DNA from: a virus | Lineage: Duplodnaviria > Caudoviricetes | Strand: one strand, 5' to 3' | Length of the DNA stretch: 64,000 nucleotides | Virus record (IMG/VR): IMGVR_UViG_3300037067_027602 | Coordinates: 32,001 to 96,000 of that record | Shown here: piece by piece, positions 1 to 24,300 of the stretch | How the letters are laid out: the number at the start of each line of letters is the position of its first letter | Position numbering within the stretch: position 1 is the stretch's first letter | The notes under the pieces: model-generated | What the model saw: the letters and a program-made list of their open reading frames with translations, nothing else | What the model was told of the DNA's origin: nothing | Database searches by the model: none | Made by a program: the position numbers and the translations under genes

Positions 1-1469
1 TCCTCCGGGGAGGACACGCCGTCCAGGAGGCTGTAGTGGCTGTGGCAATGGAGGTGGACGAAATCGTCGGCGGGACGGCGGTGCCCGGTCTTCTTGTGGG
101 TCAACCGCTCGACCTCGTCCTTGAAAGCTTTGGCGGACTCCGGGGCCGACCATTCAAGGCCCTTCAACGCCTCTCCGCCGCAGACATGGATCCTTTTTCC
201 AAGCGGAAGCCTGCCCAAGGAAAAGGAGACCAGATGTTTCAGTTCGTTCGGGGACCTGGGGGCGCATGATTGGTCATGGGTGTTCACCATGGCGCAATTG
301 CGGGGCTGCAGCGGTATGACGACATGGGGTTTGGATCCAACCAGGAAGAACTCGTCCCAATTCTGCTCCATGATATGCGTGGTCGCCTCATCAGGCGTCT
401 CCCATTTTTTTACGAGCCTGGCGGCCGCCTTCGCCAGGACGACGCTAGGCCACATCTCCCCCTCCGCCATGGGGATTCCTCGGGACACGTTCAACGCGAG
501 CTCGCCGCCGGAGGCCATGGCTTTGGCCATGGCCCCTATCGACGGCGGGCCGGTTTCCGGTGACATCTCTTTCGGGGACGCTTTTCTGGCGGGGCAGCGA
601 AGGAGGGAGGTTGCGGTCGGGACGACCGAGAGGTCCGTCCATTCCGAAAAAGCTATGGACCACGGCAATTTGGCTTTCCCTAGCACATAATGGGAGAAAT
701 TGTCGGCGAACGCTTGGTATCCCTTGAAGAACCCCTCTTTGTCCTCTCCCGGCTCCGCCCTGGCCACCATCAGGCTGGCGATCTTCTGGGAGGACATCCA
801 ATCCAAGTTAGGATCATTGCCGATGTTCACCGGGGCTACGCCGAACTTGCCCTTGGCCCTGCCCGGCTCATCCCCGCAAATCCATCCCACCAAAGGGGCG
901 GGAGCTTTGATGGCCTCCCCGGGGACCATGTGCATGGCCTTGAAGCCGAAATCGCCGGCCGCCTCCTCGAACCCCCTCTCCCAGTCGCACATGGCGTCCT
1001 CCGGGGGCATGACGAAAATTGAGAGGCTTGGGATCTCGGGCGGCATGAACGCCACCCCGCGGAGGGCGTCGTCGCATTTCCCCTGGTCGCATAGAAGGCA
1101 GGCGGCGTAGGCCGGGGATGCGGGCATGGAGTCAACCTTGCCGGATACCTCCATGCGGGATTCCTGCCTCTCCTTGTCGAACCCCTTCTCCCGGGACTTC
1201 AACAAATCCCCCATCGAGACGAAAAACGCCCTTCTGGAATTCTTGGACATGTTGACGGCGACGTCCGTGGGCAGTAGGTCATCCCTTGTCAGGAACGCCC
1301 CGTCCTTCATGCTGGCGACGATATGGCTCTTCTCCTCCTTGAACGCCGTGGCGAAGAACCTGCGTCCGTTCGGCAATTTGAAACAACCGTCCTGCAACGT
1401 CAGCGACCCTGGCTTCAATCTACCGAAGTACAAAGACAACGCGGCCACGTGGCCATTTATCTGCGCCAT
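1..1469 (-). CDS. dnaE: DNA polymerase III alpha subunit (DnaE), 5' part only, with ~470-aa N-terminal extension; runs off the window start
   Basis: Not in the ORF track because it has no stop in the window. Manual translation from ATG 1469 (GGGGAG RBS) stays open to position 1 and ends ...DDFVHLHCHSHYSLLDGVSSPE, the canonical DnaE PHP-domain start motif. Confidence 0.88.
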   Translation of the reverse strand, partial: MAQINGHVAALSLYFGRLKPGSLTLQDGCFKLPNGRRFFATAFKEEKSHIVASMKDGAFLTRDDLLPTDVAVNMSKNSRRAFFVSMGDLLKSREKGFDKERQESRMEVSGKVDSMPASPAYAACLLCDQGKCDDALRGVAFMPPEIPSLSIFVMPPEDAMCDWERGFEEAAGDFGFKAMHMVPGEAIKAPAPLVGWICGDEPGRAKGKFGVAPVNIGNDPNLDWMSSQKIASLMVARAEPGEDKEGFFKGYQAFADNFSHYVLGKAKLPWSIAFSEWTDLSVVPTATSLLRCPARKASPKEMSPETGPPSIGAMAKAMASGGELALNVSRGIPMAEGEMWPSVVLAKAAARLVKKWETPDEATTHIMEQNWDEFFLVGSKPHVVIPLQPRNCAMVNTHDQSCAPRSPNELKHLVSFSLGRLPLGKRIHVCGGEALKGLEWSAPESAKAFKDEVERLTHKKTGHRRPADDFVHLHCHSHYSLLDGVSSPE

Positions 1470-1488: not shown

Positions 1489-1557
1489 GTTTCTGGTTAC
1501 CGGAAAATATAGCGCCGCCAAACGACGGCGCAAGTCATCAAAGAAAAATATTTTTTT
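1489..1557 (-). promoter_or_regulatory. Putative sigma70-type promoter P1 for dnaE, with leader motif AACCAGAAAC
   Basis: TTGCGC (1533-1528), 16 nt, TATATT (1511-1506), with an A/T tract upstream. An inverted repeat GCGCCGTC/GGCGGCGC spans the spacer and could also act as a terminator for the upstream gene. Confidence 0.55.
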
Positions 1558-2862: not shown

Positions 2863-3422
2863 GGCGTCACCCGTGACAGCGTGGTCAGGCCGTTGTTGTT
2901 CGTCCGCACGTCGCTCTTGGTCCACTCGGGATGGTTGCGGAGGAAGGCGTCGACGGCGCCGTTCAAGCCGGGCGACCGCCCGTCCTCGCCCCGTTCCCCG
3001 AAGGACACTGTGTCATGGAGCACAATCTTCTTGGCGACTTTAGCGGCGTGGCGCTCCAGCTCCGCCAGCAGCTGCCCGTAGGTGTGCAGCGTGTCGATGA
3101 AAAGCAGGTCTGTGGGCTCGATGACGGCCTCCAACGTGGACTCTTTGTGGAAAATCCACTTCTTCCCCTCGGCCTTCGCCGCCTCCGCCACCTGGGCGAA
3201 GCGCGGCTTGTTGTCGGCGATGTCGTAGCTCCTCACGTCGCCGCAGCCAAGCAGCAGCGGCACGGTGGAGACCGACGACCTCACCCCAAACTCGGTGGCG
3301 TTGCCGCATTCCCCCGCGAGCTCCCGCAACCGCAGGAGATGCTCGTAGATGTCGCCGTTGATGACGCCCTCCCTGTCCAGTGGCCTGGAACATATCCTGG
3401 TGTACTCCTCTTCCAGATTCAT
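2859..3422 (-). CDS. Class I SAM-dependent methyltransferase (Methyltransf_24-like)
   Basis: DIYEHL...EFGVRSSVST...DLLFIDTLHTYGQL...IVLHDT...NNNGLT; GGAGG RBS before ATG 3422. Confidence 0.85.
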   Translation of the reverse strand: MNLEEEYTRICSRPLDREGVINGDIYEHLLRLRELAGECGNATEFGVRSSVSTVPLLLGCGDVRSYDIADNKPRFAQVAEAAKAEGKKWIFHKESTLEAVIEPTDLLFIDTLHTYGQLLAELERHAAKVAKKIVLHDTVSFGERGEDGRSPGLNGAVDAFLRNHPEWTKSDVRTNNNGLTTLSRVTP

Positions 3423-3424
3423 GA

Positions 3425-4306
3425 TCAATTCCTCCCGAAAATTGTTGAACCGCGCCCTTCGCAGTTCTTCCCGTCCTCTTGCCTGTCCCCCCGGTAATTT
3501 CCCGGATACCAAGACTTGGCGTTCTCCTCAATCCTCTCCCTGGTCAACGTCCCGTCGAAGACCTCGACATCGTCAATCCCGGGCAGCCCTTTTTCCCTGA
3601 ACTCCTTGAGGAGCCCCGGGGAGAACTTCTCCCTTCTCTGCTCCAGCTTCTCCCTGGGGATGGGGACGGGCATGCCGCACTTCCCGCACCAGCGGTCCAC
3701 CTGGTCCTTGAACTGGTCGGGCGTCCTTTTCCACCAGCCCGGCTCGACCGGGAACCCGCCGGGGCCGTCGAAGATGGTGTCCAGCGCGTAGGCCACCTCG
3801 CAGAAAAACCCGCCTTTGTCGCCGATGGTGGGGCACCATGTCCTCTGGACCCAGCAGTCGTCGATCAGCCGCTTTTTCAACTCAGCGTCCTGGACGACGT
3901 CATTGATGGCGACGGTGATCGGCTGGTGCCGGCAGACTTTCCGCTGCTCGGCGTCGTGGGGGTTGTGGGCGACCATCCCGAACGTCGAGTCTATGAGCCC
4001 CTTGATGGAGTCGAACCGTTTCCCTCCGATGGTCCACAGCCCCATCCGTTGCCTGGGGTATTTGGACTTGATCAGGGTACACACCTCCTCGAACTCCGGA
4101 TGAAGCATGGGCTCCCCGCCAATGATCCCGATCCTTCCCGGGAAATCCTTCAGGGAATCCAAGGCCAGGGAAATCTTCTCCAGGGACATATGGAAACGCT
4201 GGTCGGGGCGGATGTGCCGGCTATGCCGGGAACAATACAGACAATTCATGTTGCAATGGTTGGTCACTTCAATGTGGCAGAACCAGGCTTCCGATATCGC
4301 TTTCAA
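3425..4306 (-). CDS. Radical SAM protein with additional C-terminal Cys
   Basis: CNMNCLYC (CxxxCxxC) and GGEPMLHP; further Cys in CWVQRTWC, FFCE and CGKCG. Likely TTG start at 4306 coupled to the upstream TGA, with a GGAG RBS. Confidence 0.88.
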   Translation of the reverse strand: MKAISEAWFCHIEVTNHCNMNCLYCSRHSRHIRPDQRFHMSLEKISLALDSLKDFPGRIGIIGGEPMLHPEFEEVCTLIKSKYPRQRMGLWTIGGKRFDSIKGLIDSTFGMVAHNPHDAEQRKVCRHQPITVAINDVVQDAELKKRLIDDCWVQRTWCPTIGDKGGFFCEVAYALDTIFDGPGGFPVEPGWWKRTPDQFKDQVDRWCGKCGMPVPIPREKLEQRREKFSPGLLKEFREKGLPGIDDVEVFDGTLTRERIEENAKSWYPGNYRGDRQEDGKNCEGRGSTIFGRN

Positions 4307-5127
4307 AATTTGGTCTCCATGGTTTTCCCCGCCTCCGCGATCCAGTCGATCCCGGGGGCGAGCATGTTGTTGACTACGTGGGTGGACAGGGACGGGGAGG
4401 GGCTCCACAAAGGGTATGCCCTTTCGTCGGACATGCCGAAACTCCGGTGCTTCCATGCCTGCCGGTAGTATGGATCCGGATCGTCCGGCCTGGAGTTGCG
4501 GGGTTTCGTCAAAGACAGCCACATCGAACAGTCGTGGTTGCCCTCGCTATAGCTCATCATCCTGTGCTTGCCTTGGCGGAAAGCTCTCGACGTGGCCATG
4601 AAAGTCAAGCAGGTCGAGGCCCGCTCCCGCCATATCCTACCATGGCGACCAAGGGGTTGCCTCAAGTTCGACTGGGTGAGCGGATTGTGCTGAGCGCTGC
4701 CATTGCTGTAGTCAGGATGGTCATACAGCGTGACGAACCCTTCCTCCATGGTGGTCCGCAAAAACTCCTCCGCCTCCTCCATCGCCCCCGGAAGATAGAG
4801 ATAGTCGTCCTCGGCCACGCATACCATCCCCTTCCAGCCATCCGGCACGGAATCTAGCTGGCGCCGGAACGTCGGGAGGTTCCCTATGCCGGGAGTCCTG
4901 ACGATCTCTAGGCCGACGTTGGAGCCGGAGAAGACTTCGTTGAAAATCTCTATGTAACCATCCGGGCAACCGTCCAGCATGACCTGCATGCTCGCCTTCA
5001 AGGAGCCAAGCCCGATCCGGAACGACTTGGCGCAAAGCCTGACAAGCCCTTCCTTGTCGCCGTCGAACACCGGCCTGTTGCCGGAGCTTTTGGGGCAAAC
5101 CCTGTATGTGATGAACAAATCCTTCAT
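4303..5127 (-). CDS. Glycosyltransferase, GT-A/GT2-like
   Basis: GIGNLPTF...VAEDDYLY...FVTLYDHPDY...STCLTF pattern; CAGGAG RBS before ATG 5127. Confidence 0.7.
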   Translation of the reverse strand: MKDLFITYRVCPKSSGNRPVFDGDKEGLVRLCAKSFRIGLGSLKASMQVMLDGCPDGYIEIFNEVFSGSNVGLEIVRTPGIGNLPTFRRQLDSVPDGWKGMVCVAEDDYLYLPGAMEEAEEFLRTTMEEGFVTLYDHPDYSNGSAQHNPLTQSNLRQPLGRHGRIWRERASTCLTFMATSRAFRQGKHRMMSYSEGNHDCSMWLSLTKPRNSRPDDPDPYYRQAWKHRSFGMSDERAYPLWSPSPSLSTHVVNNMLAPGIDWIAEAGKTMETKF

Positions 5128-5138
5128 GAGGTTCTCCT

Positions 5139-5181
5139 GAAAAAGAGGCCGCCCCGGGATTTTGGGGATCCAGGGGCGGCC
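5139..5181 (-). terminator. Intrinsic terminator-like hairpin
   Basis: GGCCGCCCC-T-GGAT/ATCC-C-GGGGCGGCC stem followed by TCTTTTTC. Confidence 0.6.
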
Positions 5182-5228
5182 AAACCAGAAACAGGAGGGC
5201 GGTGTCTGGGGAACAAATCCGCTCACTG
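5139..5228 (-). ncRNA. Candidate ~90-nt small RNA or structured 5' leader
   Basis: Lies between a near-consensus promoter and a GC-rich hairpin with U-tract. Contains CCUCCUGUUUCUGGUU, complementary to the leaders of three replication genes. Confidence 0.5.
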
Positions 5229-5233
5229 ACCTG

Positions 5234-5262
5234 AATCTACAACCACCCCCCGCGATTGTCAA
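5234..5262 (-). promoter_or_regulatory. sigma70-type promoter
   Basis: TTGACA (5262-5257), 17 nt, TAGATT (5239-5234). Confidence 0.7.
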
Positions 5263-6422: not shown

Positions 6423-8228
6423 TCAAATCTCCAAAAGGGTTGGTTTCGGGGAGGGGAGCGAGGAGTCGTGCCCCAGCGTCATGTCGAACAGTTTCATCCA
6501 GGCGTCGAGGAACGGCCCCCAGGCGTATTCCTTGGCCCTCTCCAGCCCGAGCCCGGAGAGCCGGGAGCGCAGCCTCGAGCCCGTCTCCAGGGCGGACTCG
6601 TCCCAGCCTGGCGAGGTCTCGTCCAAATAGCGGCGCCATTTCTTGACGAACCCGTCCTTGTCCTCCATGTACATCTTGTCGAGGCGCATGGCGAAATCCA
6701 GCTCGTCCACCAGGGCCCGCTGGGCGTTGATCCGGGGTTCAGTCATGAAATGCGCCACGCGGATCAGCTCGGCGCAATCGGCGCAGAAGTCCAGATGGGC
6801 GCTGTAGTTCGTGATGAGCATCGGGGCGCCGCAGGCCATCGCCTCGAGGGCAGGGAGACAATTGTGGACGGCTACTCCGGATACCGTGTAAGAGTTGTCA
6901 TCCTCCACCTCAAGGTTGTAAATATCCCCCTCGTATACACGGGAAGATTTGGCCGACACGATTCCCGGAGTAACGAAAGAGGGGCGGAACAGGCCATTCC
7001 CCACCTCCACGGAAGAAGCTTCCCTCCAGTCGAACCCCTCATCCCCAGGGTGGGAATACAGAAGATGTTTTGGGGTACATTCCAAAACGCCGTCATCAAA
7101 ACTAAGGACGGACAGTTCCCCGCAGTATCTTCTAGAGAAAGTTTCTGTCACTTTTTTTAGCCGACCGACATGTGTGACCACTTCTTCGCCGATGGTGACA
7201 TCCTCAATAGGCTTCTTTCCATCCTTGCATTCCACCATGCTTCCTGGAGGAAAACAGAATCCCTCCCCGGTGGTCGGCAACGCCCAAACGTCGAAAGACC
7301 CGATGATCCTCCCGAGGGTCTCGACGTCCACCCCCATGCCGACCTTCATGCCGCGCGGGAACACCAGCTTGTCGACCACGCCCTCCCTTCCCGCCAGCTC
7401 CACGAGATCCCATCCGATGTCGTCGGTGGCGGCGTGGATATAGAGGACTGTGTCCTCCTTGGCCGGGAAGCGGTGAAAGCCGGACAACCCGCCGCAGGCG
7501 CACTTGGCCGGCTCCTGCCCGAAGGCGATGGAACCGCAGTCCATGCAGGTGGAGCAGGCGGATGAGAACATGGAGAACGCCCGGATCAAGGCCGGGAGGT
7601 TCTTCCGCGGCTGGTTCCTCGCCACGGTGCCGACGATGAACTTGTCTCCGTTGGGGCAGATGGTGGCCCTGGTCCCAACCCTCTCGTCCGGGGACGGAGG
7701 TTTGAACACCGACAGGTCGACGCCGTGCGGGATCGCGGCCAGACGGCCCTTGTTCACGTTCGGGAAAGCCTTGGCGATCTCCTCCACGCCGTACTTGCCG
7801 TAGAGCACCAGCTGGTCGGCGGCCTGGAACACGTCCGCCCAGCGGCTGTAGATGGGGCCGGAGTCGATCGGGATGTAGAGGACCAGCTTGAACCTGTTCC
7901 TGAACTGCGACTTTGTGGCGGCGGTGACCATCCAGGCGTCGCCCACGGCGAGGACCAGGTCGGGCCGGAAACGCGAGCACACCTCGTCGAAGGTGACGTG
8001 GGCGTACTTGTCCTTCTCCCTCTCCTCCCCGTTGCCGTGCTTCGTCCGGCGGATGCCGTAAGGGACGGCCTCCCCGGAACCGTTGTCGAACCAGCCTATG
8101 ACCGCCAGCTCGTGTTTCCCCGACCCGGCGATCCTGTCGCAGATCTTCCGGATCACCGTGGCGAACCCCGTGTGGATGCGGGGACTGTCTCCCATAACTA
8201 GAATTCTCGGTTTCCTCGCCCAGGACAT
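6423..8228 (-). CDS. Glycosyltransferase family 4 (GT-B) containing a mini-intein and a Cys-rich zinc-ribbon insert
   Basis: DSPRIHTGFA, IPHGVD and VARNQPRKN; the GEGF|CLPALEAMACG motif is split by the intein; CSTCMDC...CAC insert. Confidence 0.9.
   Translation of the reverse strand: MSWARKPRILVMGDSPRIHTGFATVIRKICDRIAGSGKHELAVIGWFDNGSGEAVPYGIRRTKHGNGEEREKDKYAHVTFDEVCSRFRPDLVLAVGDAWMVTAATKSQFRNRFKLVLYIPIDSGPIYSRWADVFQAADQLVLYGKYGVEEIAKAFPNVNKGRLAAIPHGVDLSVFKPPSPDERVGTRATICPNGDKFIVGTVARNQPRKNLPALIRAFSMFSSACSTCMDCGSIAFGQEPAKCACGGLSGFHRFPAKEDTVLYIHAATDDIGWDLVELAGREGVVDKLVFPRGMKVGMGVDVETLGRIIGSFDVWALPTTGEGFCFPPGSMVECKDGKKPIEDVTIGEEVVTHVGRLKKVTETFSRRYCGELSVLSFDDGVLECTPKHLLYSHPGDEGFDWREASSVEVGNGLFRPSFVTPGIVSAKSSRVYEGDIYNLEVEDDNSYTVSGVAVHNCLPALEAMACGAPMLITNYSAHLDFCADCAELIRVAHFMTEPRINAQRALVDELDFAMRLDKMYMEDKDGFVKKWRRYLDETSPGWDESALETGSRLRSRLSGLGLERAKEYAWGPFLDAWMKLFDMTLGHDSSLPSPKPTLLEI
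6861..7256 (-). mobile_element. Mini-intein (132 aa, no homing endonuclease)
   Basis: Starts CFPPGSMV, block B CTPKHLL, block F/G IYNLEVEDDNSYTVSGVAVHN followed by Cys+1; visibly lower GC than the flanks. Confidence 0.93.
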
Positions 8229-10206: not shown

Positions 10207-10980
10207 TCACACCGGGATGTCGTCCTCGGGGGGAGCGTCCTGATATTGTTGCTGCGGGGCGGCCGGGCGTCCGTATGGCTGTTGGGGCGGGCGCTGGTAT
10301 CCCTGGTGCGGGGGCGGAGGTTGTTGATAACCGCCCTGGGGATGCGCCGGCCGCTGCTGCGGAGGGGGCTGGCCCTGGTATCCGCCGCTCTGCCTGGTGG
10401 GGGTGTCGCGGTCGACGTCGGGGGGAGGGGGCTGTTGCCGCTGTTGATAACCCCCCTGTTGTGGCTGGCGCTGGCCGCCGTTGTTGTTGCCCTTGTTGCC
10501 GAAGAACATTGTCCCGGGAGGGCCCGCCATGAAGAAGACGAACTCGTGGATGATGGCGCCGCGCGCCTGGGGGTTGGTGTTCTTCCAGGGGGCGTACTTG
10601 CCGACGAGCTGGACCATGTCGCCGGGGTTGCACTGGTTGATGAACTCAAGCGCCCGGTCGCCGAAGACTTTGCAGGAGATGTAGGCCTGGCTTCTCTCCT
10701 CGGCCACATGCAGCCTGAACTTGGCGAACTGCTTGCCGTTCTGGGTCGCGCCCCACTCGATGGACTCGCGCCCCTGCATCTGCGTCTGGCAGATCTCGCC
10801 GATGAACATGCAGCAATTGACGCTGAAAAGGTCGCCTCCGCCGCCCTGCGCTTGCTGCTGGGGGGGTTGCTGTTGCGGGGGAGGCTGTCCCTGGTATCCT
10901 CCGCCGCGCTGTTGGTAGCCTCCCTGTTGCGGACGGGGCTGCTGGTATCCGCCCCCCTGGTCTTGGTAGCCCTGTGACAT
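10207..10980 (-). CDS. ssb: Single-stranded DNA-binding protein (internal start within the primase ORF)
   Basis: AGGAG RBS before ATG 10980; OB-fold pattern VNCCMFIGEI...AKFRLHV...CKVFG...GDMVQLVGK; Q/G/P-rich linkers; acidic tail EDDIPV. Confidence 0.78.
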   Translation of the reverse strand: MSQGYQDQGGGYQQPRPQQGGYQQRGGGYQGQPPPQQQPPQQQAQGGGGDLFSVNCCMFIGEICQTQMQGRESIEWGATQNGKQFAKFRLHVAEERSQAYISCKVFGDRALEFINQCNPGDMVQLVGKYAPWKNTNPQARGAIIHEFVFFMAGPPGTMFFGNKGNNNGGQRQPQQGGYQQRQQPPPPDVDRDTPTRQSGGYQGQPPPQQRPAHPQGGYQQPPPPHQGYQRPPQQPYGRPAAPQQQYQDAPPEDDIPV

Positions 10981-12081
10981 TTGACCCGCTCCTTCTGGTT
11001 CTTGGTTTAAAACCCCATACTGTACACCACGCACATCCGGGGCGCAAATAATTTTTTCCGCATTGTTCAACAATTTATGGATTTCCTCCGGCTCCATGGA
11101 CCCTATGTCCCTGGAGTCGGCGAACGGCAGCCTCAGCAGATCCACCCGCCCGAACATGGCCGCCACGGCCTTGTCGGAACCTTTCCTGCCGGCCTTGTCG
11201 GGGTCGAGGGCGAGCACGACGGTGGACGAGAGCCCCACGACCAGCTCCATCTGCTCCATGGTCATCCCGCTTCCCATGATTGCGACGATGTTTTCGATCC
11301 CTGCCATCCAGCATTTCCAGAGGTCGCAGAAACCCTCGACGACAAGGACCCATCCGGACTCCGCTATATGGGGTCTGGCCAGGTGCAGCCCGTAGAGGTT
11401 CCCTCCCCGGTCGCTGCCCTTCCCCTGCCGGTATTTTCCCGGGGCGTCCTCGTCCGCCACCATCCTGCCCGAGATGCCAACCAATGATCCATCCCCCGAC
11501 CTGATCGGGATCACCGCCCTGTTCGGGAACTCGTCGTGCATCCACGGGGTGTCCATCGAGTGGCAGGAGCCCACCTCGAACAAATCCAGGACCCAGTCCG
11601 GGAACCCCCTCTCGTTGAAATAGGAGTTCCTCCTGGATTTGCACCTGGCGACGAACTCCTCGCAAAGGTACTCGGTGGGGATGACCTCTTTCCTCGCCCT
11701 CTCCCCCCACAACGCCTCCGCGCATTTGGCGAGCGCCCCTCCGGACGCCCGTTTGTGGAAGACGCCGTCGTCGTCGACCCCGCAGAAATCCATGAGCCAA
11801 CGCAAAGCGGCGGGGAAATCCACGTCCATCAACGCCATCACCAAGTCTACAGCGTCGCCGTGCGCCCCGCCGCATTGGGTGTAGCACTTCCAATGGAAGC
11901 CCTGCCCTCCCTCGACGGAGCGGAGGTTGATGGCGAACGCCGTCGGGTTGTCCCCGCCATGGATGGGGCATGGGCTGCGCAGCTCCGTCCCGTCGTCCTG
12001 GCAAATCTGGACTCCCAGCTCGGCGCAGAGGGCCCGGCCGTCGAGGTTCGCCATCAGCTCGTCTTTAAGCTCGGCGTTCAT
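10207..12081 (-). CDS. dnaG: DnaG-type primase (CHC2 zinc finger + TOPRIM) reading without a stop into an SSB domain
   Basis: CPIHGGDNP...CYTQC, SGR, NLYGL, VEGFCD and LDPDKAG; ATG 12081 overlaps the dnaB stop (ATGA). Confidence 0.88.
   Translation of the reverse strand: MNAELKDELMANLDGRALCAELGVQICQDDGTELRSPCPIHGGDNPTAFAINLRSVEGGQGFHWKCYTQCGGAHGDAVDLVMALMDVDFPAALRWLMDFCGVDDDGVFHKRASGGALAKCAEALWGERARKEVIPTEYLCEEFVARCKSRRNSYFNERGFPDWVLDLFEVGSCHSMDTPWMHDEFPNRAVIPIRSGDGSLVGISGRMVADEDAPGKYRQGKGSDRGGNLYGLHLARPHIAESGWVLVVEGFCDLWKCWMAGIENIVAIMGSGMTMEQMELVVGLSSTVVLALDPDKAGRKGSDKAVAAMFGRVDLLRLPFADSRDIGSMEPEEIHKLLNNAEKIICAPDVRGVQYGVLNQEPEGAGQMSQGYQDQGGGYQQPRPQQGGYQQRGGGYQGQPPPQQQPPQQQAQGGGGDLFSVNCCMFIGEICQTQMQGRESIEWGATQNGKQFAKFRLHVAEERSQAYISCKVFGDRALEFINQCNPGDMVQLVGKYAPWKNTNPQARGAIIHEFVFFMAGPPGTMFFGNKGNNNGGQRQPQQGGYQQRQQPPPPDVDRDTPTRQSGGYQGQPPPQQRPAHPQGGYQQPPPPHQGYQRPPQQPYGRPAAPQQQYQDAPPEDDIPV
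10989..11056 (-). promoter_or_regulatory. Putative internal promoter P3 for ssb, with AACCAGAAGGAG leader
   Basis: TTGCGC (11047-11042), 17 nt, TACAGT (11024-11019), with an A-tract upstream. Confidence 0.5.
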
Positions 12082-17580: not shown

Positions 17581-17651
17581 CCTCCTTTTTCTGGTTGACA
17601 AAAATATAGCGCCCCCCGGCGCGCTTGCAAATGGCGTTAAAAAATTTTTTT
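17581..17651 (-). promoter_or_regulatory. Putative promoter P2 of the replication operon, with AACCAGAAAAAGGAGG leader
   Basis: TTGCAA (17630-17625), 16 nt, TATATT (17608-17603); A/T UP-like tract; GCGCC-GGGG-GGCGC palindrome abutting the -10. Confidence 0.6.
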
Positions 17652-17734: not shown

Positions 17735-17763
17735 TTGACATTTTAATCTCCTCGTGATATTCT
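17735..17763 (+). promoter_or_regulatory. tnpB promoter; start site predicted at the ATG (leaderless mRNA)
   Basis: TTGACA (17735-40), 17 nt, TATTCT (17758-63) with extended TG; ATG at 17770; no SD. Confidence 0.6.
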
Positions 17764-17769
17764 TACAGC

Positions 17770-18927
17770 ATGAAGACGCAAAGAACAATAGCCCTGGTGA
17801 TAAAAGATTCCAAAAACCTCGTCGGGGTTGTCATGGAATACAACCGCTACCAGAAAGCGATCAGCGAGACCGCTTTCAACGGCGGCGAGCCGCTGTCTGC
17901 CTTCGATCTTCAGAAGGCCGTCTACCACACGGTTGAGACCACTCTCCTTTCTCAGATGAAATGCTCCGCCATTCGTGGCGTCGCCTCGGCCTACTCGTCG
18001 GCCAGAAGCAACGGACGCCCGGCCACCAGGCCGTTCATCTTCAAGCGTCCGGCGGCGTTGTTCCTTTTTAACAAGAACTTCAGTTTCACCGGCAAAGGCA
18101 AACTTTCCATAACCACCTCCCAAGGCAGGGAGAAACTCGATTTCATCGTCCCGGACTACGCCAAGGCCGACTTCGACCAAGCCGTGTCCTACGACAGCAT
18201 TACGGTCACAGGTTCCGGGGCGGTCAGGCTTTGCCTGACGCTCGAAGTCCCGGATCCCAAATCCATCACCCCGGTCGGCATCGACCTCGGAGCCAACAAC
18301 CCGCTCGTCGCCTCCGTCGAGGGCGGGGAAGTTTTGTTCGTGTCCGGATCCGCGTTGGCGCAGGCCAACCGCCGGACGAGGAAGACCCGCCAGCGGCTGC
18401 AAAGCAAGCTGGCCGTCCAGAAGGCACAAGGAAAAAGCGCACGGAGCGTGCGCCGATCCTTGAAACGGCTGGGACGGAAACAAAGCGATAGAAGCCGGAC
18501 GTTCTGCAAACAGACCGCCGCCGAGCTCTGCTCGTGGGCTCCCAAGGATTCCGTGCTCGTCTTCGAGGATCTGAAATTCGACCAGGTCTCCAAGGGCGAC
18601 AGGAAACGCAAGGGAACCCACCGCAAACTCAGCCAGTGGTTCTACGGGCAGATGATCCAGGCGTGTTCCAGCAAGGCCGAGAGGCTCGGGTTGGGGGTGG
18701 CTTTCGTCAACCCCGCCTACACCTCCCAAAAATGCAGGAAATGCGGTCTGATTGGAACTCGTTCCGGTCATTCTTTCTCCTGTGTCTGCGGCCATTCCGA
18801 GCACGCCGACGTCAACGCATCGCACAACATCCGGCGAAACTACGCCGTCCTACGGGACGGTGGGCATCAGTCAGCATGCCCCGAAGCTCGGCCTCGCAAG
18901 AGGCGCGGGCAAGCCACAGCCCTTTAG
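17770..18927 (+). CDS. tnpB: RNA-guided endonuclease TnpB
   Basis: RuvC-I GIDLG, RuvC-II FEDL, zinc finger TSQKCRKCG...CVCG and RuvC-III HADVNASHNI; the D-E-D triad is intact. Confidence 0.95.
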   Translation: MKTQRTIALVIKDSKNLVGVVMEYNRYQKAISETAFNGGEPLSAFDLQKAVYHTVETTLLSQMKCSAIRGVASAYSSARSNGRPATRPFIFKRPAALFLFNKNFSFTGKGKLSITTSQGREKLDFIVPDYAKADFDQAVSYDSITVTGSGAVRLCLTLEVPDPKSITPVGIDLGANNPLVASVEGGEVLFVSGSALAQANRRTRKTRQRLQSKLAVQKAQGKSARSVRRSLKRLGRKQSDRSRTFCKQTAAELCSWAPKDSVLVFEDLKFDQVSKGDRKRKGTHRKLSQWFYGQMIQACSSKAERLGLGVAFVNPAYTSQKCRKCGLIGTRSGHSFSCVCGHSEHADVNASHNIRRNYAVLRDGGHQSACPEARPRKRRGQATAL

Positions 18928-21349: not shown

Positions 21350-24300
21350 CAGAAATCGTCCCCCCAATCAAAATATTTGACAGCCGGATCGTAGACGAAC
21401 GCGCCCGGAGACGCGTCCGCCCCCAAGCTGGCGGCATTGGACGATCCCACCCAATCAGAGCTCAGACTATACACCCTCTGGGACGTGTGCGCAAATGAAA
21501 TCCTGAAAAGGGCGTCCTGGGGGCGCTCCAGGGCTTTGTAGGCCGCGGACACGTAACCGTTGTCGAGGACGGTGAACGAACGGACGGAAGGGTTTCTCCA
21601 ATCCCCGGATATGCCCGTCACGTCTCCGGACAGCGCCAGCGCCGGGTTGCTGGAGACGAGAGTCCATCCTCCCCCGCGCAGGACGGCGGTGAAAATACGG
21701 TCGTCCCCGTCGACGGACCTGTTATAATAGACCCTTGTGGCGGGGTCTCCTCCGTCCGAGTCCGCCAGCGCGCTCAAGTTATACACCCCTGACGCCAACA
21801 TGGACTCCGCGCCCCATCCGGAGGCGGAGGCGTCCCTGACGAAAGTGGCGGGGGACGAGCCCGAGTATCCGGTGTAATAAAGTTTCCCCCCGAACATGCA
21901 TGGCGAGGTGAGATCCATCCCTCCGCCAAACCCGGCATCCAGCGTCGACGAGAATACCTCACCGTCCAGGGACTCGGCGAACGACAGCACGGACAATCCC
22001 CCGGACGCCCTCGCGAAACACATCGTCGCCACCGACCCCGACACGCTGACCCATGGTGAATACCCTGCCGGCAGCCCTGACACCTGCACCGGATCCCCCC
22101 ACGAGGAGGCGTCCTCCGACCACGAGACATGGATGGCGTTCAACCCGTCCTTGACGGCGGAGAACCACATCCCCCATCGGCTTCCGAATTTGGCCACGCA
22201 CGGCGAATGGGCCGCCGAGATCCCGAATTTTTCCTGGAGCGACTCATACCTCCCCATCGGCAAAGCCAGAGACCTCTCCCCGGCCCTGGAAGGGGACATC
22301 GCCCTGGCGTGGAGCAATGTCGGCTCCCCCCTTGACCCGGTCTTGGAGTACCACATGAAATATTCCATCCCGGAAGTTTTCACGACCGACGGCCTCGACC
22401 TGGATCTGGACAACGGCGTCCACACGTCCAACTCGTCCTCGTGCCCGGATGGGGGGTCGGTCGGCCATTCGACCGCCGCCTCATCGTACAAATACGCCCC
22501 GGACGAGGAGACGCGGAACTCCAGCTTTGACATGTTGAACGTCCCGGCCCCTTTCGGCGCCCAAAGAGCGAAATACACGGACAGCGACGATCCTGACATA
22601 GCCCTGGAGAGGATCTCGGGGGACGCGGACGAAAAGTCGTCCGCGGTCACCAGGTTGTATGACCTTGCACGCCACAGATATTCTCCGGCGTACGACCCGC
22701 CAAACGGGGGGAGGTCGCCGGAGGCTTCCCCGGGCAGGGCCGCCATCGGTATTGTCAACGTCGTGTAAATCCTCTCCTTTTGCGCTTCCTCCCCCTCGGC
22801 TTCGGCGTCGCCCCCGGTGTCCATGACCTCCCCCGCCCATAGATAGGAGTTGTTGTCGACGACGGACTCCACCGTCCCCGACGGGACGGAATAGGAGGTG
22901 ATGGTGGTGTCGTCGGAATGTATCCTCGAACCGGACTTGTCAAACAGCAAAGTCCGGAACGGCTCCCCCGAGGCGGACGCGAAACCCGGGTCAGGGTCCA
23001 GCTGGAATTCGCAGTAAACCTGGCATCTGGGATCATAGAGCCCGCTCGCCCCGCTCAGCACCCGGTAATCGAAAACTCCCCCTTCCGGGGAATTGCCGTT
23101 GAACCCATTGCAATAGAAACCCTGGTCTATGAGCCTCTCCCTCGCCGCCGACAGGGCGTCCAGCCTCATGTCGACATACGCCGGGAGGCCGTCTATCATC
23201 CCGGACAGCTCCTGCTCCATGTCCATCAACCTGTCGCGCCTGGTGACCCCCGGGATGACCGCCGCCGACATCCACCCCTCGTACCCCGCGCCGTCGGCCA
23301 CATTTCCGGATGCGTCGAGGAACGCGAAAAGGCCGGAGGGGGGCGGATACGACTTGAACTCCTCTATCCTGGACATCGACAGGTCGATTCCTCCGGGATA
23401 TCTGACAGGGGCCGCCAGGACGGAGGTCTCTCCGGTGTCGGGGTTGTAGTGGTAATATTGAGTCTTGCCGGAAAGCGACACGACCCCGTCGTCGCCGGTT
23501 TTCCAGGCGGGGTTGTAGTCGGCCGAGAACGACAGCCTGGGGGGCGACATCCCGTCGACTATCTTGGACGGGACTATCTCTATCGCCACGCGGCATGACT
23601 GCGTGGGGGACGATATGTAGCCTTTCGCCGCCCACACCAGCTTGTGGACGCCGCCTTGCGCCGAAGGGGACGTCCTGGAGTCCAGATGGTCGGTGTCGCC
23701 CATCACATCCCCCATGGACACCTGCAGGAAATCGCCCCCGACGCTGTACCACAAGCCCATGACGTTGTACATGTTGCCGTTGACGTCGTCTATCGAATAA
23801 GTTATGACCAATCTGCCAGTCCATGGCTCGTACTCGCACGAGATGACGTTGGGGGCGGCCGGAGCCCCTCCGCCGACCTTGAATTTCGAAGACCCCACCC
23901 AAGACGAGAACGTGTTGCTGGTCTTGTCATATTGGCGTATCCTCATCTTGTAGTCGAACCCCGGCTCCAAACCCTGCCTGCCGATGGTGTCCCAATAGTC
24001 GTAGAACGCCCCCTTGGTGGCGAGCCAGGCGTTCGCCCCCATGTCGAACGAGGCTCCGTCCAGGATGACGTCGACGTACTCCGTACTGGACCCGTCCTCC
24101 AGCAGCCTGCACACCTGGAGCTGCACGCTGGTCGTCGCCCCCATGGTCCCCCTCCAATGGAGCAGGTTGTATGAATCCCACTCCGGCTGGAGGTATGCCA
24201 TTCCAAGCTTCTGGACGTCGGCGCTCTTCCACACCCCGCCCCCCATCCTGTACAATCCCCTCTCCCAGCGGTTGGTCGGCTCCACGCGGTTGCAGAACCC

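What the first reader, a model, noticed from the sequence alone, without database searches (positions are those of the whole stretch)
5139..5262. Candidate small RNA complementary to a shared leader/RBS motif of three replication transcripts
Seen: a TTGACA-17-TAGATT promoter drives about 90 nt ending in a GC hairpin with U-tract. It contains 5'-CCUCCUGUUUCUGGUU-3' (5198-5183), whose complement is AACCAGAAACAGGAGG. This matches the leader of the replication operon at 17596-17581 (AACCAGAAAAAGGAGG, 15/16, covering the SD), the dnaE leader at 1498-1489 (AACCAGAAAC, 10/10) and the ssb leader at 11000-10989 (AACCAGA-AGGAG, with a bulge). In each case the motif lies just downstream of a predicted -10 box. 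Inference: a phage trans-acting sRNA coordinately shuts off translation of the replication genes. Alternative: a cis attenuator in which CUCCUG pairs with the downstream GT gene's own SD (CAGGAG, 5139-5134).
Basis: partly seen in the sequence, partly recalled or inferred. Interest (0 to 1): 0.75.

Follow-up and report, generated by a model that had tools for sequence, protein, structure and literature searches.

The report
Candidate anti-leader small RNA in phage
A 156-kb uncultured phage has a promoter-to-terminator unit for a roughly 87-base RNA that carries the exact mirror image of a ribosome-binding leader shared by several early DNA-metabolism genes; it may switch those genes off by pairing, but no transcript, conservation or effect has been shown.

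Summary
On the minus strand, TTGACA-17-TAGATT (5262-5234) is followed by about 87 nt and one of the strongest intrinsic terminators in the genome (5181-5140). The stretch 5199-5183 is a perfect 17-nt complement of the leader and Shine-Dalgarno (SD) site of a 72-aa gene outside the window (genome 3076-3092). It also matches the leader at window 17596 at 15/16 and a third leader at 14/16. All three leaders have the same 6-nt spacing to the ATG.

Genome-wide, no other anti-SD-containing site extends beyond 13 nt into any translation start region. Weaker matches reach DnaE, SSB, ThyX, a DNA methyltransferase, Rad52 and RecQ.

The function is unproven:
- No usable relative carries the element. The nearest one (81% nt) loses homology exactly at the downstream ATG.
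- No RNA data could be obtained.
- Duplex energy alone is not significant.
- The terminator abuts the ribosome-binding site of a five-gene operon that has no other promoter.
- A second unit of the same build precedes a RecQ gene but has no such complement.

A cis attenuator role is therefore likely in any case. I give the trans-acting reading about 0.4.

This scan has noted similar anti-leader RNA candidates in other phage genomes.

The parts
5257..5262 (-). -35 hexamer TTGACA
5234..5239 (-). -10 hexamer TAGATT, 17-nt G-rich spacer upstream
   Evidence: 16 of 32 promoter-like sites lie in the 8% of the genome that is non-coding.
5140..5227 (-). Predicted terminated transcript of about 87 nt. 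The start at about 5227 is inferred from the -10 position; the end lies in the U-tract.
   Evidence: Inference. No RNA data.
5183..5199 (-). Anti-leader seed CCCUCCUGUUUCUGGUU, between a weak 5' hairpin and the terminator
   Evidence: 17/17 complement to genome 3076-3092(+). Mean unpaired probability 0.58.
5140..5181 (-). Intrinsic terminator: 13-bp GC-rich stem, 7-nt C-rich loop, then UCUUUUU
   Evidence: -27.4 kcal/mol
5125..5139 (-). SD CAGGAG and the ATG of the downstream GT-A-like gene. This is the first gene of a five-gene coupled operon (4303-5127, then on to 1562).
17581..17596 (-). Target leader AACCAGAAAAAGGAGG (15/16) of the 466-aa first gene of the replication/recombination operon, 6 nt after the -10 TATATT
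   Evidence: cofold ddG -17.4
1489..1498 (-). Target leader AACCAGAAAC (10/10) of the DnaE/PHP gene, 7 nt after the -10. It does not cover the SD.
   Evidence: ddG -11.2
10985..11000 (-). Target leader AACCAGAAGGAGCGGG of the SSB-like start at 10980 (gapped match)
   Evidence: ddG -20.2

Best explanation
Transcripts from the TTGACA-17-TAGATT promoter mostly stop at the strong hairpin-plus-U-tract about 87 nt downstream. This gives a small non-coding RNA.

The RNA has a largely open segment just 5' of the terminator, CCCUCCUGUUUCUGGUU. This segment is the antisense of a start-associated leader motif, (C)AACCAGAAA(C/A)AGGAGG followed by 6 nt and the ATG. Several early messages of the phage carry that motif. 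The RNA would pair with these leaders across the SD site and block ribosome loading, or trigger decay.

Predicted targets, strongest first:
- the 72-aa basic protein gene at genome 3098;
- the 466-aa first gene of the replication/recombination operon;
- a 190-aa early gene;
- more weakly, SSB, DnaE, ThyX, a DNA methyltransferase, Rad52 and RecQ.

The fraction of transcripts that reads through the terminator expresses the five-gene glycosyltransferase/radical-SAM/methyltransferase operon. The unit would therefore be both an attenuating leader and an sRNA source.

Shown: the anatomy, the complementarity and its rarity.
Inferred: transcription, termination, trans pairing, and the direction of the effect.
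For: - Promoter and terminator are in the sRNA-gene order, and both are among the best of their kind in the genome.
- The fold keeps the terminator and leaves the seed partly open.
- There is a 17/17 match to the genome 3076 leader, 15/16 to window 17596 and 14/16 to genome 3502. All three have identical spacing to the ATG, and their proteins are unrelated.
- The match is an outlier among all anti-SD sites: 17 nt against a maximum of 13. It is also an outlier among all genome windows, with blastn-short E = 0.001.
- The plus-strand copy lacks a start codon at the conserved spacing, so it is an antisense copy and not a leader.
- The extended match is not explained by cis pairing, because the RNA's own downstream SD shares only 6 nt with it.
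- Cofolding gives ddG of -24 to -9 kcal/mol for nine leaders with the terminator intact, against -6.4 for the RNA's own ribosome-binding site.
- Target genes are DNA-metabolism genes.
Against: - No expression data.
- No conservation or covariation. L029 is the same phage (99.9%). The only informative relative, L028 (81% nt), loses homology exactly at ATG 5127 and has an overlapping unrelated gene there. A distant 184-kb relative has an HNH gene instead and no such leaders.
- Duplex energy is not better than for shuffled seeds (p = 0.115).
- AACCAGAA is no more enriched in leaders than other A-rich words.
- Part of the motif (AGAAA..AGGAGG) is simply an extended SD, so any anti-SD-like stretch has a head start.
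- The downstream operon has no other promoter, so a cis role is enough to explain the promoter and terminator.
- A second unit of the same architecture has no anti-leader complement.
- A 17-nt inverted copy could be a relic of recombination between leader cassettes.
Confidence: 0.4

Rival explanations
1. Cis-only element. The promoter is the promoter of the GT-A/radical-SAM/methyltransferase/GT2 operon. The hairpin is a promoter-proximal attenuator that also acts as an intra-operon terminator for transcripts arriving from the upstream replication operon. Read-through is constitutive but partial, or is controlled by an unknown factor. The short RNA is a by-product. The 17-nt anti-leader match is then a relic of an inverted leader cassette at a mosaic junction and has no trans function.
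For: - The U-tract touches the SD of the operon's first gene.
- The next four genes are coupled or overlapping, and the apparent gaps at 4190-4302 and 2767-2858 are coding.
- A second unit of the same build, promoter then about 85 nt then a -33.5 kcal/mol terminator then a gene, precedes a RecQ-like helicase.
- Terminators directly before the next ribosome-binding site are common in this genome.
- The element sits exactly at a synteny break against L028.
- One fold pairs CUCCUG with the downstream SD.
Against: - It leaves the 17/17 match unexplained, along with the family of matches. The match is an outlier genome-wide.
- No antiterminator alternative structure is visible in the leader (direct reading).
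- No Q-type antiterminator or NusG paralogue was found.
- The cis anti-SD stem is only 6 bp and is lost in a longer folding window.
- There is no similarity beyond the 17 nt that would mark a recent duplication.
Confidence: 0.35
2. DNA-level site. AACCAGAAAC... is an asymmetric operator for a phage or host DNA-binding protein. It sits at or just after the start point of a class of early promoters. The copy at 5183-5199 is one more operator in the opposite orientation, which matters little for a DNA site.
For: - In three promoters (window 17630, window 1533, genome 19730) the motif begins 6-8 nt after the -10, that is, at the start point.
- All these promoters share an AAAAAATTTT UP-like element and TTGCAA.
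Against: - The tightest conservation, including identical spacing, is to the SD and start codon rather than to the promoter.
- In other leaders the motif is 17-23 nt after the -10, or has no visible promoter at all.
- The match runs through AGGAGGG, which is an RNA-level signal.
- The copy in the unit lies about 30-45 nt into the transcript.
Confidence: 0.08
3. Coding. A leaderless GUG at 5226-5224, 7 nt after the -10, starts translation of a GT-A isoform with a 33-residue N-terminal extension. The frame is open from there to ATG 5127.
For: - The frame is open.
- IS genes in this genome are leaderless, with the -10, then 6 nt, then ATG.
Against: - An open frame of 34 codons is expected by chance about 0.3 of the time at this composition (my estimate).
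- The extension is absent from the 71% homologue and from more distant homologues, which all start at MKDLF or align from there.
- A strong SD precedes ATG 5127.
- The frame would have to be translated through a terminator.
- The same test on the second unit gives an obviously non-protein R/P/G-rich product.
Confidence: 0.04
4. Pure coincidence of an anti-SD-like stretch with A-rich extended SD leaders.
For: - Leaders are generally GAAAAAGGAG-like.
- One unrelated 17-nt complement exists in a coding region, at window 22877-22893.
- The duplex-energy test is not significant.
Against: - In the conditional test the maximum elsewhere is 13 nt among 602-1098 anti-SD sites.
- The match falls inside a 142-nt promoter-terminator unit, which gives a per-locus probability of about 3e-4 at the genome's own empirical rate.
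Confidence: 0.08

Closest known systems
c4 antisense RNA of phages P1 and P7 (review PMC12197685)
   Same: It is a phage-encoded RNA of about 77-90 nt. It pairs in trans with the ribosome-binding region of a phage message and blocks translation.
   Different: - c4 serves immunity in temperate phages. It has one target operon (ant) and, from my own knowledge, is cut out of the same transcript that carries its target.
- Here the RNA would have its own promoter and an intrinsic terminator, with many dispersed targets.
- There is no Rfam match to C4 or to any other family.
Start-Associated Sequences (SAS) of Cluster K mycobacteriophages (PMC3203893)
   Same: - SAS is a short asymmetric repeat that contains the SD core and lies a few bases before the start codons of a subset of non-structural genes from unrelated families.
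- Nearly all copies are in one orientation, with a single copy in the opposite orientation.
- The authors left open whether an RNA or a protein reads it.
   Different: - The sequence differs (GGGATAGGAGCCC there).
- Those phages have tens of sites; here there are 3 tight and about 8 loose ones.
- No promoter-terminator unit around the reverse copy was reported there.
Lambda PR'-6S RNA-tR' with Q antitermination (my own knowledge)
   Same: A strong promoter is followed at short distance by a terminator at the head of an operon. This gives a short terminated RNA unless read-through occurs.
   Different: - No Q-family (PF06530, PF03589) or NusG-like gene was found.
- The 6S RNA has no known antisense targets.
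Leader- or attenuator-derived trans-acting sRNAs, such as the riboswitch-derived SreA/SreB of Listeria (my own knowledge)
   Same: A prematurely terminated 5' leader doubles as a base-pairing regulator of distant messages.
   Different: No ligand-sensing fold or known riboswitch is present here.
T4 RegA translational repressor (review PMC3014915, listed, not read; role stated from my own knowledge)
   Same: It gives coordinate repression of many early messages, including replication messages, at their ribosome-binding sites.
   Different: RegA is a protein; here the proposed repressor is an RNA.
C/U-rich anti-SD seed sRNAs such as RsaE/RoxS, RepG and sX13 (my own knowledge)
   Same: A C-rich exposed stretch pairs with G-rich SD regions of several messages.
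   Different: Those are cellular sRNAs. The sX13 model scores only 13.4 bits (E = 3.8) here, which is not a match.

Membership tests
Trans-acting base-pairing sRNA gene (generic definition) | Own promoter and Rho-independent terminator bounding 50-300 nt | tested here: met
Trans-acting base-pairing sRNA gene (generic definition) | Discrete, stable transcript | not testable with these tools
Trans-acting base-pairing sRNA gene (generic definition) | Accessible seed complementary to target start regions, beyond chance | tested here: met
   The energy-only test was not significant.
Trans-acting base-pairing sRNA gene (generic definition) | Conservation or covariation of seed and targets in relatives | tested here: inconclusive
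   Only an identical strain (L029, L072), a relative that lacks the locus (L028) and a very distant relative (L038) were found.
Trans-acting base-pairing sRNA gene (generic definition) | No protein-coding potential | tested here: inconclusive
   The frame is open into the downstream gene, but it has no SD and no support from homologues.
C4 antisense RNA family (Rfam) | Match to the covariance model | tested here: not met
   No hit at the gathering score or at E up to 10.
C4 antisense RNA family (Rfam) | Target sites in the same operon just downstream | tested here: not met
   The best targets are 34 kb and 12 kb away. The RNA's own downstream ribosome-binding site shares only 6 nt.
Start-Associated Sequences (Cluster K type) | Consensus GGGATAGGAGCCC | tested here: not met
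   The motif here is AACCAGAAACAGGAGG.
Start-Associated Sequences (Cluster K type) | Contains the SD core, lies 3-8 nt before start codons of unrelated non-structural genes, and is in one orientation apart from a single reverse copy | tested here: met
   Three sites with 2 or fewer mismatches all lie 6 nt before the ATG. The proteins are unrelated. There is one reverse copy.
Q-type promoter-proximal antitermination unit | Promoter followed by a nearby terminator ahead of an operon | tested here: met
Q-type promoter-proximal antitermination unit | Q-family antiterminator gene in the genome | tested here: not met
   PF06530 and PF03589 gave no match; the record is 89% complete.
Known riboswitch or cis-regulatory RNA (Rfam 15) | Covariance-model match | tested here: not met

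The most novel reading that the evidence does not exclude
The phage runs a private post-transcriptional regulon. A start-associated leader tag marks about ten early DNA-metabolism messages. A dedicated antisense RNA reads that tag. The RNA is made by premature termination at the head of the glycosyl/methyl-modification operon, so one promoter both times the modification genes and shuts down early translation. This would give the first mechanistic reader for SAS-like motifs and an RNA counterpart of T4 RegA.
Probability: 0.3. Interest if true: 0.75.

Novelty: new variant of a known kind. Interest (0 to 1): 0.55.

Why it matters
Repeated motifs next to start codons have been known in phages since the Cluster K SAS report, but nothing has been identified that reads them. 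Here the single reverse copy of such a motif sits inside a clean promoter-terminator unit, which turns the question into a simple reporter experiment. If confirmed, it would show that large lytic-type phages use multi-target sRNAs to time their replication genes. That role is so far assigned to proteins such as RegA. It would also give a search rule for other phages: the reverse copy of a leader tag next to a terminator.

Tried and rejected
- Rfam at gathering and permissive thresholds: nothing credible. No tRNA or tmRNA.
- GenBank phages by blastn: no match.
- IMG/VR searches with the two flanking proteins and the 466-aa protein found no relatives; RecA found only distant ones.
- The 16-mer in IMG/VR and the 17-mer in metagenomes gave chance hits only, plus the same phage's left arm as L072.
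- Protein searches found one 71% relative of the downstream gene, none of the 466-aa gene, and a 41% GT4 on a 184-kb contig that lacks the element.
- Duplex energy against all start regions is dominated by GC-rich imperfect duplexes and is not significant.
- Q antiterminators, NusG paralogues, Hfq and ProQ are absent from the record.
- Homology between the two promoter-terminator units: none beyond architecture.
- The leaderless coding reading was rejected.
- Host inference from the TnpB gene: no relative in genome contigs.
- A plus-strand promoter or gene at the motif copy: none seen. The only start is a GTG 3 nt after the SD, with a 10-codon frame (direct reading).

Full report
**Context.** The window is bases 32001-96000 of a 156,497-bp IMG/VR virus record with 62% G+C, estimated 89% complete. 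Genes from about 10 kb to 137 kb run almost entirely on the minus strand. Upstream of the finding lies a replication/recombination operon:
- a 466-aa protein, RecA, DnaB-like helicase, DnaG-like primase, SSB and a PD-(D/E)XK nuclease;
- then an intein-bearing GT4 and a second GT4.

Downstream lies a tightly coupled five-gene cluster (GT-A-like, radical SAM, a 187-aa protein, a methyltransferase and GT2). After that come a new promoter and a DnaE/PHP gene.

**The observation.**
- TTGACA (5262-5257), a 17-nt spacer and TAGATT (5239-5234) form a promoter that, at 10/12, ties for best in the first 20 kb.
- In the whole genome, 16 of 32 comparable promoter-like sites fall in the 8% that is non-coding, so intergenic predictions are credible.
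- About 87 nt downstream is a 13-bp GC-rich hairpin with UCUUUUU (5181-5140, -27.4 kcal/mol). It is among the strongest intergenic terminators in the genome.
- The U-tract runs straight into the SD CAGGAG (5139-5134) and ATG 5127 of the GT-A-like gene.
- The stretch CCCUCCUGUUUCUGGUU (5199-5183) lies between a weak 5' hairpin and the terminator and is about 58% unpaired in the ensemble.

**The targets.** The three in-window matches are real. The best one, however, lies outside the window.
- Genome 3076-3092(+) is a perfect 17-nt complement. It covers the SD of a 72-aa, very basic protein gene.
- With two or fewer mismatches to the 16-mer there are four sites in the genome. Three are leaders (genome 3076, window 17596, genome 3502), each exactly 6 nt before the ATG. 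The fourth is the reverse copy in the unit.
- The proteins behind the leaders are unrelated, so the leaders are cassettes and not products of gene duplication.
- Looser copies precede DnaE, SSB, an intein-bearing ThyX, a DNA methyltransferase, a Rad52-like protein (there split by a hairpin), RecQ and a few unknowns.
- Five of the leaders follow a distinct promoter class: AAAAAATTTT, then TTGCAA, 16-18 nt, then TAWATT, often with a GC hairpin in the spacer.
- The plus-strand copy at 5183 has no start codon at the conserved spacing, so it is not a leader in its own right.

**Is it chance?** Four tests say no and two are not significant.
- Of 602 CTCCT and 1098 CCTCC sites outside leader loci, none extends more than 13 nt into the antisense of any start region, except this one at 17 nt.
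- Only one other locus in the genome, a coding site at window 22877-22893, has a complement of 16 nt or more.
- blastn-short gives E = 0.001 for the 17-mer.
- Twenty-two start regions share 8 nt or more with the RNA's 5' part, against 6.5 for random windows (p = 0.006).
- Not significant: duplex energy, which is no better than for shuffled seeds in this GC-rich genome (p = 0.115).
- Not significant: AACCAGAA is enriched in leaders only about as much as other A-rich words.

Part of the motif is simply an extended SD. Cofolding gives ddG of -24.1 (72-aa leader), -20.2 (SSB), -18.9, -17.4, -17.4, -15.1, -11.2 and -9.1 kcal/mol, with the terminator intact. The RNA's own downstream ribosome-binding site gives -6.4.

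**Comparative evidence is essentially absent.**
- L029 and L072 are the same phage (99.4-99.9% identity), and the unit is identical in L029.
- L028 is the only moderately diverged relative (81% nt, 3.2 kb). It is collinear up to the base before ATG 5127. Upstream of that it has an unrelated gene overlapping the start, so it has no intergenic region there. The unit therefore sits at a mosaic junction.
- A 184-kb contig with the same gene order but only 41% identity in GT4 has an HNH gene at the corresponding place and no AACCAGAA leaders.
- Pattern scans of viral and metagenome contigs gave only chance hits.
- No RNA data could be obtained.

**Cis versus trans.** The downstream five genes have no other promoter. 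The apparent gaps are coding, and the radical-SAM gene starts at a TTG overlapping the GT-A stop. Their expression therefore needs read-through of this terminator, whatever else the short RNA does.

A second unit has the same build. TTGACG-17-TATATT is followed by about 85 nt of C-rich, strongly folded RNA (z = -5.5), a -33.5 kcal/mol terminator and then a gene. It precedes a RecQ-like helicase at genome 146627-146776, and the RecQ leader carries AACCAGACAGG. That second RNA has no complement of 13 nt or more to any start region, and the two units are not homologous.

The architecture therefore probably has a cis meaning (attenuation). But cis pairing does not explain the 17-nt match, because the RNA's own SD shares only 6 nt with it, and that stem appears in one folding window and not in a longer one. 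No Q-type antiterminator, NusG paralogue, Hfq or ProQ is encoded.

**Verdict.** I rate the readings as follows:
- 0.4: a terminated leader RNA that also acts in trans on the tagged early leaders.
- 0.35: a cis-only attenuator, with the match a relic of an inverted leader cassette.
- 0.08: a DNA-level operator.
- 0.08: coincidence.
- 0.04: a leaderless N-terminal extension.

**Comparison with what is known.**
- The nearest described regulator is the c4 RNA of P1/P7 (PMC12197685). This RNA is not a family member, since there is no Rfam hit, and it differs in having many dispersed targets.
- The leader tag behaves like the Start-Associated Sequences of Cluster K mycobacteriophages, including their single reverse-orientation copy.
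- Functionally the proposal is an RNA counterpart of T4 RegA.
- Notes from this scan describe similar anti-leader RNA candidates in at least eight other phage or plasmid-like genomes. These notes are unchecked and I did not use them as evidence.

Noticed in passing
L161:9627-9776 (genome 146627-146776, + strand; outside the window): A second unit of the same build precedes a RecQ-like helicase. TTGACG-17-TATATT is followed by about 85 nt of C-rich, strongly folded RNA (z = -5.5) and a -33.5 kcal/mol terminator. The RecQ leader then carries AACCAGACAGG. The unit has no complement to start regions.
   Followed up: partly
window 17660-17603, 1556-1506, 11056-11021; L030:3012-3055 and 19745-19702: An early promoter class: an AAAAAATTTT UP-like element, TTGCAA, 16-18 nt, then TAWATT. 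The spacer is often a GC hairpin (for example GCGCCGGGGGGCGC). The AACCAGAA leader follows.
   Followed up: partly
window 10207-12081 (-): The DnaG-like primase and the SSB-like protein (Q/G/P-rich tails, C-terminal DDIPV) lie in one uninterrupted frame. A promoter-like stretch, the tagged leader and an internal ATG at 10980 sit in a low-GC3 linker. This suggests a fusion protein plus free SSB from an internal start. In the distant relative L038 the two are separate genes.
   Followed up: partly
window 17735-17772 (+); L030:8796-8758 (-), 1123-1160 (+), 14044-14006 (-): The IS genes (three TnpB copies and an IS607-type TnpA) have near-perfect TTGACA-17-TATAAT promoters with the ATG 6-7 nt after the -10. 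They would be leaderless messages, unlike the phage's own genes, which have strong SD sites.
   Followed up: no
window 6423-8228 (-); L030:17248-18939 (-): There are two inteins. A Hint domain sits in the first GT4 (601 aa, against 469 aa without it in L038). A LAGLIDADG domain sits inside a ThyX-like gene.
   Followed up: no
L029:6741-6808: The JGI contig of the same phage carries an Illumina adapter sequence in place of the AT-rich UP element upstream of the dnaE promoter. This is an assembly artefact, not a variant.
   Followed up: yes
window 5128 / L028:670: Homology with the 81% relative ends at the base before the GT-A start codon. This is a module junction placed exactly at a gene start.
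   Followed up: yes
window 22877-22893 (-): This is the only other long complement (17 nt) to a start region in the genome. It lies inside the 1572-aa gene and matches the leader of a gene at about genome 131066. It is probably chance.
   Followed up: no
L030:3098-3316 (+): The perfect-match target encodes a 72-aa, lysine/arginine/alanine-rich protein. It has no family match and looks like a small nucleic-acid-binding early protein.
   Followed up: partly
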